IMG/VR virus record: IMGVR_UViG_2519899780_000006
Length of the DNA stretch: 48,195 nt
Reading direction: 5' to 3' (one strand)
DNA from: a virus
Taxonomy: Duplodnaviria > Heunggongvirae > Uroviricota > Caudoviricetes
Shown piece after piece: positions 583-43,872 of the stretch. Every line of letters starts with the position of its first letter. Within the stretch, counting starts at the first letter, position 1. Both the position numbers and the translations under genes were made by a program. The notes under the pieces were generated by a model that did no database searches, was not told where the DNA came from, and was given only the letters and a program-made list of their open reading frames with translations.

Positions 583-3374
583 TATGCAAGCCTCACAATA
601 TAGTTAAATGCGATGTTTTTGACGGTGTTTTCCGCGTTACCAGCAGCGTTAACGGTGATGGTGTGTCCATGTGAACCAATCGCAACGGAGTGCGCATGAG
701 CACCAATTGGAACAGAGTGCGCATGGTTACCTGTAGTGCTTGTGGCACCAGACCAGGTTCTGGAAGCGTTAAAGTTTACAGGAACACCATAAGTAAATTG
801 AGAGCCCGTAAATCCATGGGCTGGCGCAGAGCCACCCAGTGTAAATGCTCCACTTGCTGTATAGAAATTACCGCTATCACTTCTGAAGTAACCGAGAGTA
901 CCGGTAATTTCCATAGTGCCTCGGCTGTGGTTATGGTCACCAGTGGCATTTGAAGACTTAGTACCATAATCAAACGACGACGTGGTTTTCGTCCCCAAAT
1001 CCGTACTGGATGCACTGGCGCTGTGGGTGTGCGATTTAATGCCGTCCTGTTCCTGAGACAATACGGCACGACCACTGGCAGGTTTGCCCTTAATCGTCCA
1101 GCCACGCATATCAGGGATCACGCCTGACGGATAAGCGGCTGCAAGTTTCGGGTAGGCAGATTTGTCAAAAGTCTGCCCCTGCATCAGGGCATAACCAGAC
1201 GGAACGGTATCTGATGGCCACGGGATTGGTGCGCCGACTGGGTAGCTTTCTGGTGGAAGATTTTTCGAGGTATAAACTTCTGCCCAGTCTTCCTCAAAAC
1301 CATAACCGTCTCTTGAAGAACGGTAGAACAGACCACCATTTCTGTAATGCGCCTTCATCTGCAGGGTCCGGCAACTTCCGACTCCGGTATAGAAGTTAAC
1401 CAGAATATAGCTGTCGCCAGAGCGGGTGACATTGTAAGCGCCTGATTCGGCATTCCAGGGAACGGCTCCATCCGAATCCGCATAAGCCCCCGTCGAACGT
1501 CGGGCAAATGCACCAATATTTTCCGGCGTGAGGTTAATATCCGCCGAGCCATCAAACTTAACACCGTTAATTTTTGGGGCTGCCGCAAGTTTCGTCGCGG
1601 TATCGGCGTTCCCCTTCAGTGCCCCGGTGATCCCATCAGTAACAGACAACGGACCTGAAATAGTCCCTCCAGTCGTTGGCAGCGCTCCAATATCTGATGG
1701 TGTAGGTTTCTGATGTGAGCTATACATCGTATAAACAACACCATCGGTAACGCTGGAAGGCTTACTCGCTGAATATGTTGGCGAGGTATAAATAGAAACT
1801 GACGCATTTGTAGTACAATCCCAATGGATATTTACACTCGTCGCATAATTGCCAATCTCAACGTAAATATCATATGTATCGCCGGATGTATTGACCCAGG
1901 CAAAATTTGTAAACCCTGTCGATGTGCGCTGCCATAAAGCACCAGTAATCCCCTTCGGATTACCATTACCTGCACGCAAAACAAGTTCAGATATACCTGC
2001 CTGTTGAGGTGCCCCCACGTTAAATCCAGCGCCACCAATCAACGTAATTGAAACAACAGAACTCGCCTGTGGCATGGTTACCGTTGCTAATTTGAACCAA
2101 CCAGCACCACCGCTGAATGACATTGTTGTTGAGTTAAGCGTACCAATATCTTTCGGCGTCAGTGTTATATCCGCCGAAAGCGCCTTACCATTCACCTTAC
2201 GGTCAGAAGGTACCCGACCATTCGCATTGTCATTCGCTGCTTTAACTGCCTTCGGTGTCGCGGCAAGCGTTTCAGATGTGCTGTTGGTCGCACTGCTGAG
2301 CTGTACTATCCCCTTTTTCGTCGTGCTCGCATCCTCAAGCGCCACGGCGGATGCAATATCCTCTGCCCGTTTTGCCGCTGTCTCAGCGCGCGTTGCTGCA
2401 GATTCCGCCGTACTTTTGCTCTGAGCTGCTGCCGTCGCACTGCCAACTGCCTCTGTCGCCTTCGTGGATGCCGTCGTGGCGCTGCCCTTCGCTGCTGACG
2501 CCTGTCTGGTCGCCTCATCTTTTGAAGCAGACGCCGATGATGCCGATGACGCCGCCGAACTGGCGGACGATGCCGCTGCCGTTTTTGAGGATTCTGCGCT
2601 GGTTTCCGAGGCTTTCGCGTTCGTTTCGGATGTCTTCGCTGCCTCTTTTGAGGCCGCCGCATCCCGTGCTGAAGTGGCTGCTTCTGACGCTTTCGTGGTC
2701 GCGGTGGATGCAGAAGTGGCTGCTGATTGTTGTGACGCTGCCGCATTCGTTTCTGACGTTTTCGCCGCACCGGCACTGGTGGCCGCCGCGCTTTTTGAGG
2801 ACTCTGCAGCGGCAGCACTTTTTGATGCTTCAGTGGCCTTTGTTGATGCCGTTCCTGCGCTGGAAGTCGCTGACTGAGCCGACGACGCGGCCTGTCCGGC
2901 TGACGTGCTGGCTGCGCGTGCTGAGCCTGCAGCATCAGTCGCATGGGTTGCCGCCTCACGGGCTGATGTGCTGGCATCACTGGCTGACTTCTTCGCGGCT
3001 GCCGTGTTCTGTGCCACCACGGACGCGTTACGCGCCACCTCTTCCACCATCAGTTCAAAACGTCGCAGTGCCTCCGGACGGGCATCATCCTCCGTCATGG
3101 CACCGAGAAAATCATTCAGCGTACCCGGTTGTGAGTCTTCATACACGGTGATGGTCCCGGCATGCGATGGCGGGAAGCCTTCCACCAACAGAATAACGCT
3201 GTACTGACCGTACTCAACGTCCATGCTGTAACGCCCTGCTTCATCCAGATTTTCAGATGCCAGCGTGTTCACCACCACCGTGGTGCTGTTACGTTTTGCT
3301 TTCAGCTGGATTGTGCAGTTCTGTACCGGTTTACCTACACCGTCTTTCAGTACACCTGAAATCTTTACTGCCAT
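582..3374 (-). CDS. stf: Side tail fiber protein Stf
   Basis: Long ORF with a central Ala/Ser/Thr-rich low-complexity segment and C-terminal His-x-His repeats ([21 protein letters not shown]). ATG at 3372-3374 is preceded by GGGGTG; the ORF track starts at an upstream GTG (3380). Confidence 0.85.
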
Positions 3375-29114: not shown

Positions 29115-29341
29115 GTCCATAAGAAAGCCCCTCCGGAGAGGGGCTGGAGAGTGGCGCTATGTGCCATTGCATGGTGCCGGGTGCCTCCCGGTGAATTCAG
29201 TACCAGCACCTGAATCCGCGATTATCCCATATACCTACTCGCTGATTGCCCCTCCGCACAGGGGGATTCACCATGCCAGTTTCTTTTAACAAACTCCCCG
29301 CAAAACAGACAACTGTCAACCGTCTGAATTGTGAGACATTT

Positions 29342-29381: not shown

Positions 29382-29458
29382 TGGCGCGTTGTACTGGATT
29401 CGAACCAGTGACCGATTGCTTAGAAGGCAATTGCTCTGTCCGGCTGAGCTAACAACGC
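29382..29458 (-). tRNA. argO: tRNA-Arg (anticodon UCU)
   Basis: 77-nt cloverleaf folded by hand: acceptor GCGTTGT/ACAACGC, D stem GCTC/GAGC, anticodon loop CUUCUAA, T loop TTCGAAT, 3' CCA encoded. Confidence 0.85.
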
Positions 29459-29474
29459 AGGATACAGATAATGA

Positions 29475-29548
29475 ACCGCCTTCGGGGACCCGAACTCCGC
29501 GCAACCAGCTTCGAAGGCTGGCGCTCTATCCTGATGAGCTAATGGCGG
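29475..29548 (-). tRNA. argN: tRNA-Arg (anticodon UCG), slightly imperfect
   Basis: About 74 nt; anticodon loop CUUCGAA; T loop TTCGGGT; one mismatch each in acceptor and T stems; no encoded CCA. Ends approximate. Confidence 0.6.
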
Positions 29549-29555
29549 TATGTGA

Positions 29556-29631
29556 TGGTGGCCCTTGCTGGATTTGAACCAGCGACCTGGCGATTATGAG
29601 TCGCTCGCTCTCACCACTGAGCTAAAGGGCC
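29556..29631 (-). tRNA. ileZ: tRNA-Ile2 (anticodon CAU), ileX/ileZ-like
   Basis: 76 nt reading GGCCCTTTAGCTCAGTGGTGAGAGCGAGCGACTCATAATCGC...CCACCA, close to E. coli ileX as recalled. Confidence 0.85.
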
Positions 29632-33560: not shown

Positions 33561-33839
33561 TTACCTCCAGATGCGTTGCTGGAATGTGCGGGACGGACGC
33601 GGTGGTCGTTCGGAGTAAGGAAGCCTGACGGAGATTATCCAGTGACGATAATCGAGGCTGAGGGCTTTCTTAATCTCGTATCCGTGTCTGCGGTAGCACT
33701 GAATTAGCCACTCGGCCTGTTCTTCAGTGCATGGGGGATGCTGGAACCAGTCAGATTTGAAAGTGCGGGAACGCCGCCCGTGCCTGCTGGCAGGGGCGGC
33801 AGAGTTATCCGAATTGTAAAATTTGGTATCGTGCGCCAT
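33561..33839 (-). CDS. Hypothetical small protein
   Basis: 92 aa from internal ATG 33837-33839 (MAHDTKFYNSDNS...); between hok and the 349-aa gene. The ORF track version runs to 33968. Confidence 0.35.
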   Translation of the reverse strand: MAHDTKFYNSDNSAAPASRHGRRSRTFKSDWFQHPPCTEEQAEWLIQCYRRHGYEIKKALSLDYRHWIISVRLPYSERPPRPSRTFQQRIWR

Positions 33840-34006
33840 CTGTTTTCTCTGCTGGCGCAGCAGGTGCCAGTTGTTCAGGCTGACGGATGGATTGTAAACC
33901 AGAACGACCAGAAAAAACAAAACCCGCCGAAGCGGGTTAAGTGCGGGTGCGTTGAGGATGCCTGACACATCAGCGGTGGCGAGGGATTTCTCCCCCGCCG
34001 GGTCTC

Positions 34007-34162
34007 TTACTCCTCAGGTTCGTAAGCTGTGAAGACAGCGACCTCCGTCTGGCCGGTTCGGATTCGTACCTCGCAGAGGTCTTTCCTCGTTACCAGTGCC
34101 GTCACTATGACGGTTAAACAGATGACGATCAGGGCGATTAACATCGCCTTTTGCTGCTTCAT
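34007..34162 (-). CDS. hokD: Hok/Gef-family type I toxin
   Basis: 51-aa ORF MKQQKAMLIALIVICLTVIVTALVTRKDLCEVRIRTGQTEVAVFTAYEPEE, hand-translated; absent from the ORF track (under 60 aa); matches HokD/RelF as recalled. Confidence 0.85.
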   Translation of the reverse strand: MKQQKAMLIALIVICLTVIVTALVTRKDLCEVRIRTGQTEVAVFTAYEPEE

Positions 34163-34420
34163 AGCCTGCTTCTCCTTGACCTTTCGGTCCGTAAGAGGCT
34201 AATCTCTATGTGTCGCATAGATATGGCCTCAGATTAATGTTAAGCGTCTTGCAGGACGCGTAATGTTAACTGGGGCTTTTCTCTATCTGCCTTTTGGTGT
34301 TCATGCCTGAGACAGATAGCCTCAAGCACCCGCAGTCATTCTACTTAACTAAGATTTCCCCGCAAACCGTTTTTGTCCGGCACAGTAAATATCCAACTAA
34401 ACCAATGGCGTTCGCTGTAT

Positions 34421-34829: not shown

Positions 34830-35087
34830 TTAGTTGTTCATAAAAGTGCACAGCTTTAACCAGTTCTTCTGATGTAACCGGGACTGGCGGGGCAGTGAAT
34901 AAGGCCTGAATTTCATAGTTCGGCCTGTCGTTACAATCCTCTTTTTTCGGTACATATTTCCAGTCACCAGACCACTACTTCCCCTGAAAGTCCGTAACGC
35001 CTTTTTTTTCACGTAGCGATATCGCCATGCCACTGTTTTTGCTTGTCCCGCCGTTTCATGCCCTTCCTGATAATTAACCTCGCTCAT
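34830..35087 (-). pseudogene. Probable decayed fragment of an ea22-like gene
   Basis: Begins MSEVNYQEGHETAGQ, like the N-termini of the two Ea22-like genes, then becomes basic low-complexity; a T8 homopolymer lies inside it. Confidence 0.3.
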
Positions 35088-35260
35088 TCATCGCCCCACT
35101 CATCACAATATGCTTCGACCGGAGTTTTTCCTGCTTCATAATCATCACGCCATGCTTCAGCATCAGCAGCACTGCCACCACGTAACTCTGCATAGTCCAT
35201 TAACAGTTCATGCCATGCTTCAAAACTGACGTTGTATTTAGTTGAACCAAAATCAGCCAT
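35084..35260 (-). CDS. Hypothetical highly acidic 58-aa protein
   Basis: Hand-translated MADFGSTKYNVSFEAWHELLMDYAELRGGSAADAEAWRDDYEAGKTPVEAYCDEWGDE; about 15 acidic versus 4 basic residues; not in the ORF track. Confidence 0.4.
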   Translation of the reverse strand: MADFGSTKYNVSFEAWHELLMDYAELRGGSAADAEAWRDDYEAGKTPVEAYCDEWGDE

Positions 35261-35435
35261 TTTGCTCTTCCTCTTCGTCTTTTATTTCGTGATATGAGTA
35301 ATTGCAGTAGTTAAAGAAAATATCTTTTGCTTCGTCATGTATTTCATCAGGCGTCGCATCATCATCCACTTCGAATTCATCCTCGAAATCTCCACCGGCT
35401 ATTCCCGTTTCAATAATTATTTTAAACTTTCGCAT
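35253..35435 (-). CDS. Hypothetical highly acidic 60-aa protein
   Basis: MRKFKIIIETGIAGGDFEDEFEVDDDATPDEIHDEAKDIFFNYCNYSYHEIKDEEEEQNG; about 20 acidic versus 5 basic residues. Confidence 0.4.
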   Translation of the reverse strand: MRKFKIIIETGIAGGDFEDEFEVDDDATPDEIHDEAKDIFFNYCNYSYHEIKDEEEEQNG

Positions 35436-35528
35436 TTAACTACCGCCCTTTCGGGCGGCCTCCTGATGTTCTGAGGGTGCAGAAATTCCTCCGGTTAAGG
35501 ATTAAATTTTTAACAGAGCTAAATTTAA

Positions 35529-35885
35529 TTATTCAGTTCTGGATTTTGTCGCCCTGCGTATCCGCGCTTTCGCGTTACGCTCAATCTGAATTAGCTTTTC
35601 TATATTTTTTCGCCTTTCCCGCTCCTCCTGGCGCAAGTGCCTTACATCATCTGCCAGTCTGGTTTCTCTTTTCGCCACAGAGAGCATCCAGTCAAATGGT
35701 TCCACAACTGCACCGCAGATTTTACAGCGGACCTGACGCTCTTTTTCGTCAACCCGGACAGAGGCGTGATGACAATATGGTCTTTCCGATGGCTCATAAA
35801 GAAAATTAACCTGATTACGAGGGTCATCCTCTTTTACCGGAAATAAAACGATATTGCTTAACTCATCCTCTGGTTTTATTTCCAT
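35529..35885 (-). CDS. Hypothetical protein with Cys/His zinc-ribbon-like motif
   Basis: 118 aa from ATG 35883-35885 (MEIKPEDE) with AGGAGAGGAG upstream; CHHASVRVDEKERQVRCKICG. Confidence 0.45.
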   Translation of the reverse strand: MEIKPEDELSNIVLFPVKEDDPRNQVNFLYEPSERPYCHHASVRVDEKERQVRCKICGAVVEPFDWMLSVAKRETRLADDVRHLRQEERERRKNIEKLIQIERNAKARIRRATKSRTE

Positions 35886-36016
35886 GCTCCTCTCCTTTGA
35901 TGCGAATGCCAGCGGTAATTGAAGCCTGATAGCTAATTTCACTCACAGTACCGCCTCCTGAAAATTTAATGAACAATTCAATACGTTCTTTGGTAATAGT
36001 GGTCATGTGTTACTCC

Positions 36017-43306: not shown

Positions 43307-43872
43307 TTTATCCTCCATTGAGGTTACTGGTTGAGAATGGAGACCTCTCGTGACAGCGTGTGGTCGTGCGCCGGACACGGATAAGAATCCGGCACTGACA
43401 GTTTACTGAAAGGATATTTCCCTGAAAAGTCAGACCATAACGCGAAAGCGCACGGCGAGGTAGCTGGTTCATAGATAGCCTGTCGTTAAATTTTCGTCGA
43501 CCGTGCGCTTCCGGTTGTGGCAATCCGCGAAATGGCGCGGCGGTAAGTATGGCGGGGTTATTCCTTCCCCCGTTGAGGACACCGGGTTGTCAGGTTGGCC
43601 ATACGCTTAAGTGACAACCCCGCTGCAACGCCCTCTGTTATCAATTTTCTGGTGACGTTTGGCGGTATCAGTTTTACTCCGTGACTGCTCTGCCGCCCTT
43701 TTTAAAGTGAATTTTGTGATGTGGTGAATGCGGCTGAGCGCACGCGGAACAGTTAAAACCAAAAACAGTGTTATGGGTGGATTCTCTGTATCCGGCGTTA
43801 ATTGTTAACTGGTTAACGTCACCTGGAGGCACCAGGCACCGCATCACAAAATTCATTGTTGAGGACGCGATA

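What the first reader, a model, noticed from the sequence alone, without database searches (positions are those of the whole stretch)
35084..35435. Two adjacent, translationally coupled, highly acidic mini-proteins
The 58-aa and 60-aa products have net charges of roughly -11 and -15. Very acidic small phage proteins in the early/nin region are often DNA mimics or other inhibitors of host defences (Ocr or ArdA-like logic, some anti-CRISPRs). The 58-aa gene is missing from the ORF track.
Basis: inference. Interest (0 to 1): 0.5.

Follow-up and report, generated by a model that had tools for sequence, protein, structure and literature searches.

The report
Two unrelated acidic mini-proteins, function unknown
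Two real, very acidic 60- and 58-residue genes sit back to back in the early operon of an E. coli lambdoid prophage, but they belong to two unrelated, already catalogued and uncharacterised families that also occur apart, so an anti-defence role is plausible and unproven.

Summary
On the minus strand, A60 (35253-35435, 60 aa, net charge -15) and B58 (35084-35260, 58 aa, net -11) overlap by 8 nt (ATGGCTGA). They lie in the nin region of a lambdoid prophage. Both are real genes (pN/pS 0.06 and 0.18). They are the only two of 235 small ORFs in the window with net charge of -10 or lower.

A60 belongs to Pfam DUF7167. B58 belongs to PHROG 519 and has no Pfam family. The two are not paralogues and not an obligate pair:
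- DUF7167 occurs without B58 in Klebsiella, Serratia, Yersinia, Pseudomonas and Enterococcus phages.
- B58 occurs without DUF7167 in Enterobacter prophages, about 180 Vi01-type virulent phages and 554 plasmids, mostly conjugative IncI2.

Acidity is conserved at specific positions in both families.

No experimental data exist. One paper lists the B58 family among machine-learning anti-CRISPR predictions.

My best guess is that each protein acts alone as an inhibitor of a host nucleic-acid-binding or defence protein. Interest is moderate.

The parts
35253..35435 (-). A60: 60-aa DUF7167-family gene, net charge -15. Predicted fold is a beta-hairpin plus alpha-helix with a low-confidence acidic C-terminal tail.
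   Evidence: ORF. Charge. Pfam PF23768 E 7.9e-15, 55.1 bits against a cut-off of 24.4. phrog_1997 E 9e-31. pN/pS 0.06. AF2 pLDDT 85.7.
35084..35260 (-). B58: 58-aa gene of the PHROG 519 family (no Pfam family), net charge -11. Predicted fold is a compact three-helix bundle.
   Evidence: ORF. Charge. phrog_519 E 2e-22. 58 representatives among 1.84 billion proteins. pN/pS 0.18. AF2 pLDDT 89.2, helices 13-27, 34-42 and 47-55.
35253..35260 (-). 8-nt overlap ATGGCTGA: the B58 start codon lies inside the A60 stop region, with GAGGAAGAG upstream as a Shine-Dalgarno-like stretch.
   Evidence: Sequence. Same geometry in 83 of the 84 related loci that carry both genes; the other differs by 1 nt. Same 8-nt overlap between a DUF1187 gene and the B58 homologue on IncI2 plasmids.
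35443..35464 (-). AGGAGG followed by a perfect 6-bp hairpin with a GAAA loop (CCGCCC-GAAA-GGGCGG), ending 7 nt before the A60 start. It has no U-tail, so it does not look like a terminator.
   Evidence: Sequence and pattern search. RNA fold. No terminator or promoter called here. The same 40-nt cassette precedes a different gene (DUF4014) in E. coli O157:H7.
34830..35087 (-). Downstream 85-aa ORF whose ATG overlaps the B58 stop (ATGA). It is a frameshifted remnant of a 171-aa gene.
   Evidence: ORF. PGAP note 'frameshifted; internal stop'. The 171-aa form follows the pair in 40 of 83 related loci, the 85-aa form in 34.
35529..35942 (-). Upstream zinc-ribbon-like gene (phrog_1621; its start is probably the ATG at 35885). 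It usually travels with the pair in E. coli prophages.
   Evidence: It is the upstream neighbour in 73 of 85 loci.

Best explanation
A60 and B58 are two genuine, unrelated, single-domain acidic proteins. They are carried as cargo in an accessory slot of the delayed-early rightward (nin) operon of an E. coli lambdoid prophage.

Shown:
- They are co-transcribed with the upstream genes, since no promoter or terminator is predicted between them.
- Their reading frames overlap.
- Each family moves independently among mobile elements.

Inferred: each protein works on its own as a small stoichiometric binder that blocks a host protein, most likely one that handles nucleic acid (a defence nuclease, RecBCD, a CRISPR complex or a nucleoid protein). 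It would do so by presenting a conserved negatively charged surface early after induction or entry. B58 would do this as a 45-residue three-helix bundle. A60 would do it as a beta-hairpin plus helix with an acidic tail.

Their adjacency here is a common E. coli prophage arrangement, not a two-component system. True DNA mimicry is one possible form of this mechanism and is not demonstrated.
For: - Real genes: family matches, purifying selection, confident folds.
- Early operon context. The same pair lies in the early-left exo-xis-type region of Stx phage ArgO145, so it is mobile accessory cargo.
- A shared hairpin junction precedes different cargo in O157:H7.
- Independence: DUF7167 occurs alone in Serratia, Klebsiella, Yersinia, Pseudomonas, a Bacilli MAG, Klebsiella Guernseyvirinae and Enterococcus Herelleviridae phages. 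B58 occurs alone in Enterobacter prophages, about 180 Vi01-type virulent phages, Autographiviridae phiKDA1 and 554 plasmids, 516 of them conjugative and mostly IncI2.
- Conserved negative charge: median -10 for B58 and -12 for DUF7167, with acidic residues held at specific positions. These are B58 positions 14, 15, 33, 42, 49, 53 (39 and 40 acidic in 70%) and A60 positions 9, 19, 22, 24-26, 30, 35, 38, 50.
- No consistent neighbour gene across taxa. This points to a host target rather than a phage-encoded partner.
- The pair is frequent: 1745 of 5426 complete E. coli genomes carry at least 80% of the locus.
- PHROG 519 members were scored as anti-CRISPR candidates by machine-learning tools (PMC9409062).
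Against: - There are no functional data of any kind, and no paper mentions DUF7167, DUF1187 or the two WP accessions.
- In Vi01-type phages, B58 sits directly after the major capsid gene, which is not an obviously early position.
- On IncI2 plasmids it lies about 18 kb from the relaxase/oriT end and beyond repA, so it is not clearly in the leading region.
- Copies of about 90% identity in decayed prophages are pseudogenes. It therefore gives no benefit to the lysogen once the phage is dead.
- High acidity is also found in small proteins with unrelated roles.
Confidence: 0.4

Rival explanations
1. Phage-internal accessory factors. One or both proteins modulate the element's own DNA replication, recombination or modification machinery, or the lysis-lysogeny decision. 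The small lambda exo-xis proteins Orf60a/61/63/73 are reported to influence that decision. No host defence is involved.
For: - The pair sits among replication, methyltransferase, Ead/Ea22, RusA and DUF968 genes, and in the exo-xis-type region of ArgO145.
- DUF7167 overlaps a DUF2800/PD-(D/E)XK nuclease gene in Klebsiella Guernseyvirinae. It lies 2-3 genes from Nmad5 and Nmad1 (nucleotide-modification-associated) genes in two distant phages.
- It follows a DUF3850/ASCH gene in Enterococcus phages.
- Small exo-xis proteins of lambda affect developmental decisions (PMC8614690).
Against: - The neighbours differ from lineage to lineage. The genes labelled 'exonuclease' are unrelated families, so there is no conserved partner.
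- B58 is on conjugative plasmids and in virulent phages that make no lysogeny decision.
- Neither protein is related to lambda Orf60a/61/63, Ea8.5 or Ea22.
Confidence: 0.3
2. One reading: the proteins are DNA mimics of the Ocr/ArdA/gp5.9 type that occupy the DNA-binding site of restriction enzymes or RecBCD.
For: - Charge density is -0.25 per residue for A60 and -0.19 for B58. From my own knowledge this is within the range of known mimics.
- Acidic positions are conserved.
- The pair lies in an early operon.
- Distribution across mobile elements includes conjugative plasmids.
Against: - No sequence match to Pfam anti-restriction families at E of 0.1 or lower, or to any PDB chain at E of 10 or lower other than noise.
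- Each folded core is only about 45-50 residues as a monomer. From my own knowledge that is shorter than the DNA segment most target enzymes contact, unless the proteins oligomerise.
- In B58, conserved acidic residues lie on all three helices rather than in one stripe (inferred).
Confidence: 0.15
3. A functional two-protein unit: A60 and B58 form a complex, or act as effector plus partner, which would explain the coupling.
For: All 84 related prophage and viral loci that carry A60 also carry B58, 83 with identical overlap geometry and one differing by 1 nt. The pair moves together between the nin region and the early-left region.
Against: - Those 84 loci are near-identical E. coli-type sequences, with A60 100% identical at the protein level.
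- Outside that clade the families never co-occur in the loci examined.
- Both proteins are strongly negative, so a heterodimer would be electrostatically unfavourable (inference).
- Overlaps are common throughout the operon.
- The first codons of B58 supply a stop for any upstream gene in that frame, including a DUF1187 gene on IncI2 plasmids.
Confidence: 0.1
4. Spurious or decaying ORFs with no function.
For: Copies of about 90% identity in cryptic prophages carry stops and frameshifts. The ORF immediately downstream is a pseudogene.
Against: - pN/pS of 0.06 and 0.18.
- Homologues at 35-60% identity in distant phages and plasmids keep length, fold-determining residues and charge.
- AF2 models are confident.
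Confidence: 0.02

Closest known systems
Pfam DUF7167 (PF23768) / PHROG 1997
   Same: A60 is a full-length member: 55.1 bits against a gathering score of 24.4, covering profile positions 1-60 of 60. It matches phrog_1997 at E 9e-31.
   Different: Nothing differs. The family itself has no known function, and no paper in the library mentions it.
PHROG 519 (unknown function; machine-learning anti-CRISPR candidates in Kuttervirus, PMC9409062)
   Same: B58 matches at E 2e-22. Vi01/CBA120-type homologues are 50-60% identical.
   Different: B58 covers only profile positions 76-137 of 143. The longer members look like alternative gene calls (149-aa entries). The anti-CRISPR label is a score from prediction software, not a result.
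Ocr (T7 gp0.3) and ArdA anti-restriction DNA mimics
   Same: Very acidic, carried by mobile elements, and expressed early.
   Different: No sequence or fold similarity. From my own knowledge, Ocr and ArdA are 117-166-residue dimers that imitate 20-40 bp of DNA, whereas A60 and B58 have cores of 45-50 residues.
Minimal acidic inhibitors such as T7 gp5.9 (RecBCD), phi29 p56 and Ugi (uracil-DNA glycosylase), T7 Gp2 (RNA polymerase)
   Same: From my own knowledge, these share the size class (50-85 aa) and strong negative charge, and each is a single-gene stand-alone inhibitor of a DNA-binding host enzyme. This is the best functional analogy.
Lambda exo-xis small proteins (Orf60a, Orf61, Orf63, Orf73, Ea8.5, Ea22)
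   Same: Same genomic niche. The pair lies between Ead/Ea22-like genes in ArgO145 and after two Ead/Ea22 genes here. These are also small early proteins of unclear function (PMC8614690).
   Different: Unrelated in sequence: best hmmsearch E is 0.04-1.4 against the six-sequence set of lambda exo-xis proteins. Their charge also differs: Orf60a is +6, Orf61 is +3 and Orf63 is -4.

Membership tests
Pfam DUF7167 (A60) | Score against the family HMM at or above the curated gathering threshold, over the full length | tested here: met
   55.1 bits against 24.4; residues 2-53 on profile positions 1-60 of 60.
PHROG 519 (B58) and PHROG 1997 (A60) | Significant match to the family profile | tested here: met
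   E 2e-22 and 9e-31. B58 matches only the C-terminal 62 of 143 profile positions.
Ocr / ArdA / ArdB-KlcA anti-restriction proteins | Sequence homology to the family | tested here: not met
   No Pfam hit at E of 0.1 or lower other than DUF7167 and a sub-threshold AnkX_ins match. Profile searches of all PDB chains gave only noise, E of 0.067 or higher.
Ocr / ArdA / other structurally defined DNA mimics (gp5.9, p56, Ugi, Arn, AcrIIA4, AcrIF2) | Fold similarity to a solved mimic | tested here: not met
DNA mimics in general | Surface carboxylates spaced like the phosphates of B-DNA, usually on an oligomer | not testable with these tools
Only charge density and conserved acidic positions could be shown.
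DNA mimics / anti-defence proteins | Binding to, and inhibition of, a defined host enzyme | not testable with these tools
   This needs experiments or complex prediction. No literature data were found.
Anti-CRISPR loci | Homology to a known Acr, or an adjacent Aca-type helix-turn-helix regulator gene | tested here: not met
Obligate two-gene system (A60 + B58) | Co-occurrence of the two families across divergent lineages | tested here: not met
   They co-occur only in the E. coli/Shigella-type clade. Each occurs alone elsewhere. The two profiles are unrelated.
Translationally coupled gene pair | Stop/start overlap with a ribosome-binding sequence inside the upstream gene | tested here: met
   ATGGCTGA overlap and GAGGAAGAG 4 nt upstream of the ATG. 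Actual coupling was not measured, and 8 of 19 junctions in this operon overlap.
Lambda exo-xis small proteins | Sequence homology to Orf60a, Orf61, Orf63, Ea8.5 or Ea22 | tested here: not met
   hmmsearch with both family profiles: best E 0.04 in a six-sequence database.

The most novel reading that the evidence does not exclude
B58 could be a pan-mobile-element inhibitor. It is a roughly 45-residue three-helix bundle shared by temperate lambdoid phages, virulent Vi01-type and KP34-type phages and IncI2 or large conjugative plasmids. It might neutralise one conserved enterobacterial barrier to incoming DNA, such as a restriction or CRISPR complex, RecBCD or a nucleoid silencer. That would make it one of the smallest and most widely shared anti-defence folds. 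DUF7167 would then be a second, independent inhibitor with a reach from Pseudomonas to Enterococcus phages.
Probability: 0.25. Interest if true: 0.65.

Novelty: new member of a known kind. Interest (0 to 1): 0.35.

Why it matters
About a third of complete E. coli genomes carry this locus. The B58 family is also on the IncI2 plasmid type, which is reported as the most common vector of the colistin-resistance gene mcr-1 (PMC8053102), and in Vi01-type phages, a group whose Kuttervirus isolates have been studied for phage therapy (PMC9409062).

If either protein disables a host barrier to incoming DNA, it would be a compact, broadly distributed counter-defence tool. That would bear on phage host range, plasmid spread and the design of therapeutic phages. 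If not, both remain ordinary accessory genes of unknown function.

The practical result here is twofold. The two genes should be tested separately, not as a pair. And sequence or fold comparison alone will not reveal their target.

Tried and rejected
1. DUF1187/YdaC-like proteins precede B58 on IncI2 plasmids, and by eye they looked like DUF7167. hhalign gives probability 0.2%, so they are not related.
2. A recurring link between DUF7167 and exonuclease genes. The neighbours labelled 'exonuclease' are unrelated families, DUF2800/PD-(D/E)XK and DUF3850/ASCH, so there is no conserved partner.
3. Homology to the lambda exo-xis proteins: none.
4. A60 and B58 as paralogues: no.
5. NCBIfam and PADLOC: no hits.
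6. Pfam scan of 30 divergent B58 relatives: only a DUF1187 hit caused by a fused gene call.
8. Literature searches found nothing functional. I searched for DUF7167, DUF1187, the WP accessions and peptide motifs. I also searched the supplements of the Silas et al. accessory-gene screen and IncI2 deletion studies (which deleted only the neighbouring regulator), and looked for Kuttervirus transcriptomes.
9. The hairpin upstream of A60 as a terminator: it has no U-tail and was not called by the scan.
10. The other very acidic ORF in the window (plus strand, 2464-2877, net -28) lies antisense inside a 932-aa gene and is a shadow ORF.

Full report
**What is there**

The window is a complete lambdoid (Rac/Qin/mEp460-like) prophage of E. 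coli. The 421 nt around the finding (35060-35480) are 100% identical to the chromosome of strain FDAARGOS_401.

On the minus strand the rightward early operon runs in this order: cro-like repressor, YdaT, replication genes, DUF977, a SAM methyltransferase, two Ead/Ea22-like genes, several small genes, the two ORFs of the finding, hok/sok, DUF968, RusA, and the Q antiterminator. 'Early/nin region' is therefore correct.

- A60 (35253-35435) encodes 60 residues with net charge -15.
- B58 (35084-35260) encodes 58 residues with net charge -11.
- The two overlap by the 8 nt ATGGCTGA, with a purine-rich stretch just upstream.
- The B58 stop in turn overlaps the ATG of an 85-codon ORF. That ORF is a frameshifted remnant of a 171-aa gene that is intact in other prophages.
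- No promoter or terminator is predicted between these genes.
- Upstream of A60 an AGGAGG is followed by a perfect GAAA-loop hairpin ending 7 nt before the ATG.

**Is it more than chance?**

Yes.
- Among 235 six-frame ORFs of 40-80 codons in the window, these are the only two with net charge of -10 or lower.
- A60 is a full-length member of Pfam DUF7167 and PHROG 1997. B58 matches PHROG 519.
- Natural alleles show purifying selection, with pooled pN/pS of 0.06 for A60 and 0.18 for B58.
- PGAP annotates both genes.
- At least 80% of the locus is present in 1745 of 5426 complete E. coli genomes.

**Are they a pair?**

All 84 related viral or prophage loci that carry A60 also carry B58; 83 have the same overlap geometry and one differs by 1 nt. 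However, these loci are near-identical E. coli-type sequences. Outside that clade the families separate.

DUF7167 occurs without any B58 relative in:
- Serratia, Klebsiella and Yersinia prophages
- Pseudomonas and a Bacilli MAG
- Klebsiella Guernseyvirinae
- 17 Enterococcus phage records, of which the one examined (PBEF129) is a Herelleviridae phage

B58 relatives occur without DUF7167 in:
- Enterobacter prophages, directly after an Ead/Ea22 gene, in both the nin and the xis-int regions
- about 180 large phages of the Vi01 type, directly after the major capsid gene in Vi01
- Autographiviridae phiKDA1 and Lastavirus ZX1
- 554 plasmids, 516 of them predicted conjugative

Most of these plasmids are IncI2 plasmids of about 60 kb. 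There an 86%-identical copy lies in a cluster made of a CaiF/GrlA-type regulator, a DUF1187 gene, B58, SPFH and NfeD, next to repA. It has the same 8-nt overlap, this time with the DUF1187 gene. That overlap is built into the first codons of B58 (ATG GCT GA).

The two family profiles are unrelated. Both proteins are strongly negative. Overlapping junctions are common in this operon, at 8 of 19. I conclude that the adjacency is a frequent E. coli arrangement of two independent cargo genes, not a two-component system. The same SD-hairpin cassette precedes a different cargo (DUF4014 then DUF551) at the equivalent slot in O157:H7, which fits a cargo-swapping site.

**What are the proteins like?**

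With a 30-sequence alignment, AlphaFold2 gives B58 a compact three-helix bundle: pLDDT 89, helices 13-27, 34-42 and 47-55. With 46 sequences, A60 is a beta-hairpin (2-8, 17-23) packed on a helix (29-43), followed by a less confident aromatic-rich segment and an acidic tail (pLDDT 86).

In B58 the invariant or near-invariant residues are aromatic or turn residues: F13, W16, W37, Y41, G44, P47, and an aromatic at 51 and 55. In A60 they are F4, F21, V23, A27, T28, I32 and A36. These are fold determinants.

On top of that, acidic residues are conserved at specific positions. In B58 these are 14, 15, 33, 42, 49 and 53, with 39 and 40 acidic in 70% of sequences. In A60 they are 9, 19, 22, 24-26, 30, 35, 38 and 50. 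Net charge is conserved, with medians of -10 and -12. The charge is therefore selected, not incidental.

**Comparison with known proteins**

- Profile searches of all PDB sequences return only noise.
- BFVD returns only uncharacterised relatives.
- NCBIfam and PADLOC give nothing.
- The lambda exo-xis proteins that occupy the same niche are unrelated.
- B58 is a small family, with 58 representatives among 1.84 billion clustered proteins.
- The DUF7167 profile finds 218 clusters.

**Literature**

No paper in the library mentions DUF7167, DUF1187 or the accessions. One genome paper lists PHROG 519 among machine-learning anti-CRISPR predictions in Kuttervirus phages, and points to acr loci that lie among head-assembly genes in Mu-like Pseudomonas phages. 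There is no experiment (PMC9409062). An IncI2 study deleted the neighbouring regulator gene without effect on fitness and did not touch the B58 homologue (PMC8053102).

**Most likely mechanism**

Shown: these are real, early-operon, independently mobile genes. Their negative charge is conserved, they have no conserved gene partner, and they are restricted to mobile elements.

Inferred: each is a stand-alone stoichiometric binder of a host protein. For B58 the spread over temperate phages, virulent phages and conjugative plasmids points to a host function that all incoming DNA meets, such as restriction, CRISPR, RecBCD or nucleoid silencing. I put this at about 0.4. Literal DNA mimicry is a subset at about 0.15, because charge is the only mimic-like feature I could verify.

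A phage-internal role in replication, recombination, DNA modification or the developmental decision is the main rival, at about 0.3. It is supported by the neighbourhoods. It is weakened by the lack of any conserved neighbour and by the plasmid and virulent-phage distribution.

Points against an anti-defence role:
- B58 sits after the capsid gene in Vi01.
- On IncI2 plasmids it lies about 18 kb from oriT and beyond repA.
- Copies in dead prophages decay.

**Verdict**

The anti-defence interpretation is neither confirmed nor excluded, and the Ocr/ArdA comparison is not supported beyond charge. The functional pairing of the two genes that their coupling might suggest is not supported. Both families are already catalogued as unknowns. 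Interest is moderate (0.35), and the most useful next step is to test each gene separately against a defence panel.

Noticed in passing
window 35441-35480 (minus strand): A 40-nt cassette (AGGAGG, a 6-bp GC hairpin with a GAAA loop, then 7 nt to the ATG) is 100% conserved in many E. coli genomes that lack the acidic pair. In O157:H7 F8092B it precedes a DUF4014 gene and a DUF551 gene at the same nin-region slot. It looks like a shared junction for swapped cargo. The Shine-Dalgarno is 23 nt from the ATG unless the hairpin folds.
   Followed up: partly
window 34830-35087 (minus strand): The 85-aa basic ORF coupled to the B58 stop is a frameshifted remnant of a 171-aa gene (start MSE[IV]NYQEGHE...). 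The intact form follows the pair in 40 of 83 related loci and the truncated form in 34.
   Followed up: partly
window 35529-35942 (minus strand): A zinc-ribbon-like protein (phrog_1621, weak TFIIB zinc-ribbon match, basic C-terminus) is the upstream neighbour of the pair in 73 of 85 related loci. It may belong to the same mobile module.
   Followed up: no
L113 8793-9177 (IncI2 plasmid CP088666.1): On IncI2 plasmids the B58 homologue is overlapped, by the same ATGGCTGA, by a DUF1187 gene. The Rac-SA53 phage homologue of that DUF1187 gene (43% identical) lies at the position of ralR, the restriction-alleviation gene. The cluster continues with SPFH and NfeD genes and is headed by a CaiF/GrlA-type regulator.
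   Followed up: partly
L100 2546-3244 and L088 1027-1347: Nucleotide-modification-associated genes (Nmad5, Nmad1/DUF1599) lie two to three genes from DUF7167 in a Klebsiella Guernseyvirinae phage and in a Bacilli phage MAG. This may be a coincidence of early-region location.
   Followed up: no
window 34007-34331; 43647-43698; 29115-29305; 29382-29631: A hokD/sok toxin-antitoxin locus lies just downstream of the finding. DicF sRNA, STnc100 sRNA and three tRNA genes (Arg-tct, Arg-tcg, and a CAT-anticodon tRNA called Met by ARAGORN and Ile by PGAP) lie elsewhere in the prophage.
   Followed up: no
L004 (PP818812.1) and L086 (JAIHTM010000290.1): A record named 'Actinobacillus phage vB_Apl-pPE4' carries DNA about 91% identical to this E. 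coli prophage, and a contig of a 'Collinsella' MAG encodes A60 at 98% protein identity. Both are probably host misattribution or contamination.
   Followed up: no
window 2464-2877 (plus strand): The only other very acidic ORF in the window (137 aa, net -28) lies antisense inside a 932-aa minus-strand gene. It is a shadow ORF, not a gene.
   Followed up: yes
L104, L105, L106: Copies of the pair at about 90% identity in Qin-like cryptic prophages and in some induced-phage records carry internal stops or frameshifts in one or both genes.
   Followed up: partly
window 33921-33938 (minus strand): The only intrinsic-terminator-like site in this stretch (7-bp stem, T-rich tail) lies downstream of hok, inside the long GTG-started ORF call 33561-33968.
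   Followed up: no
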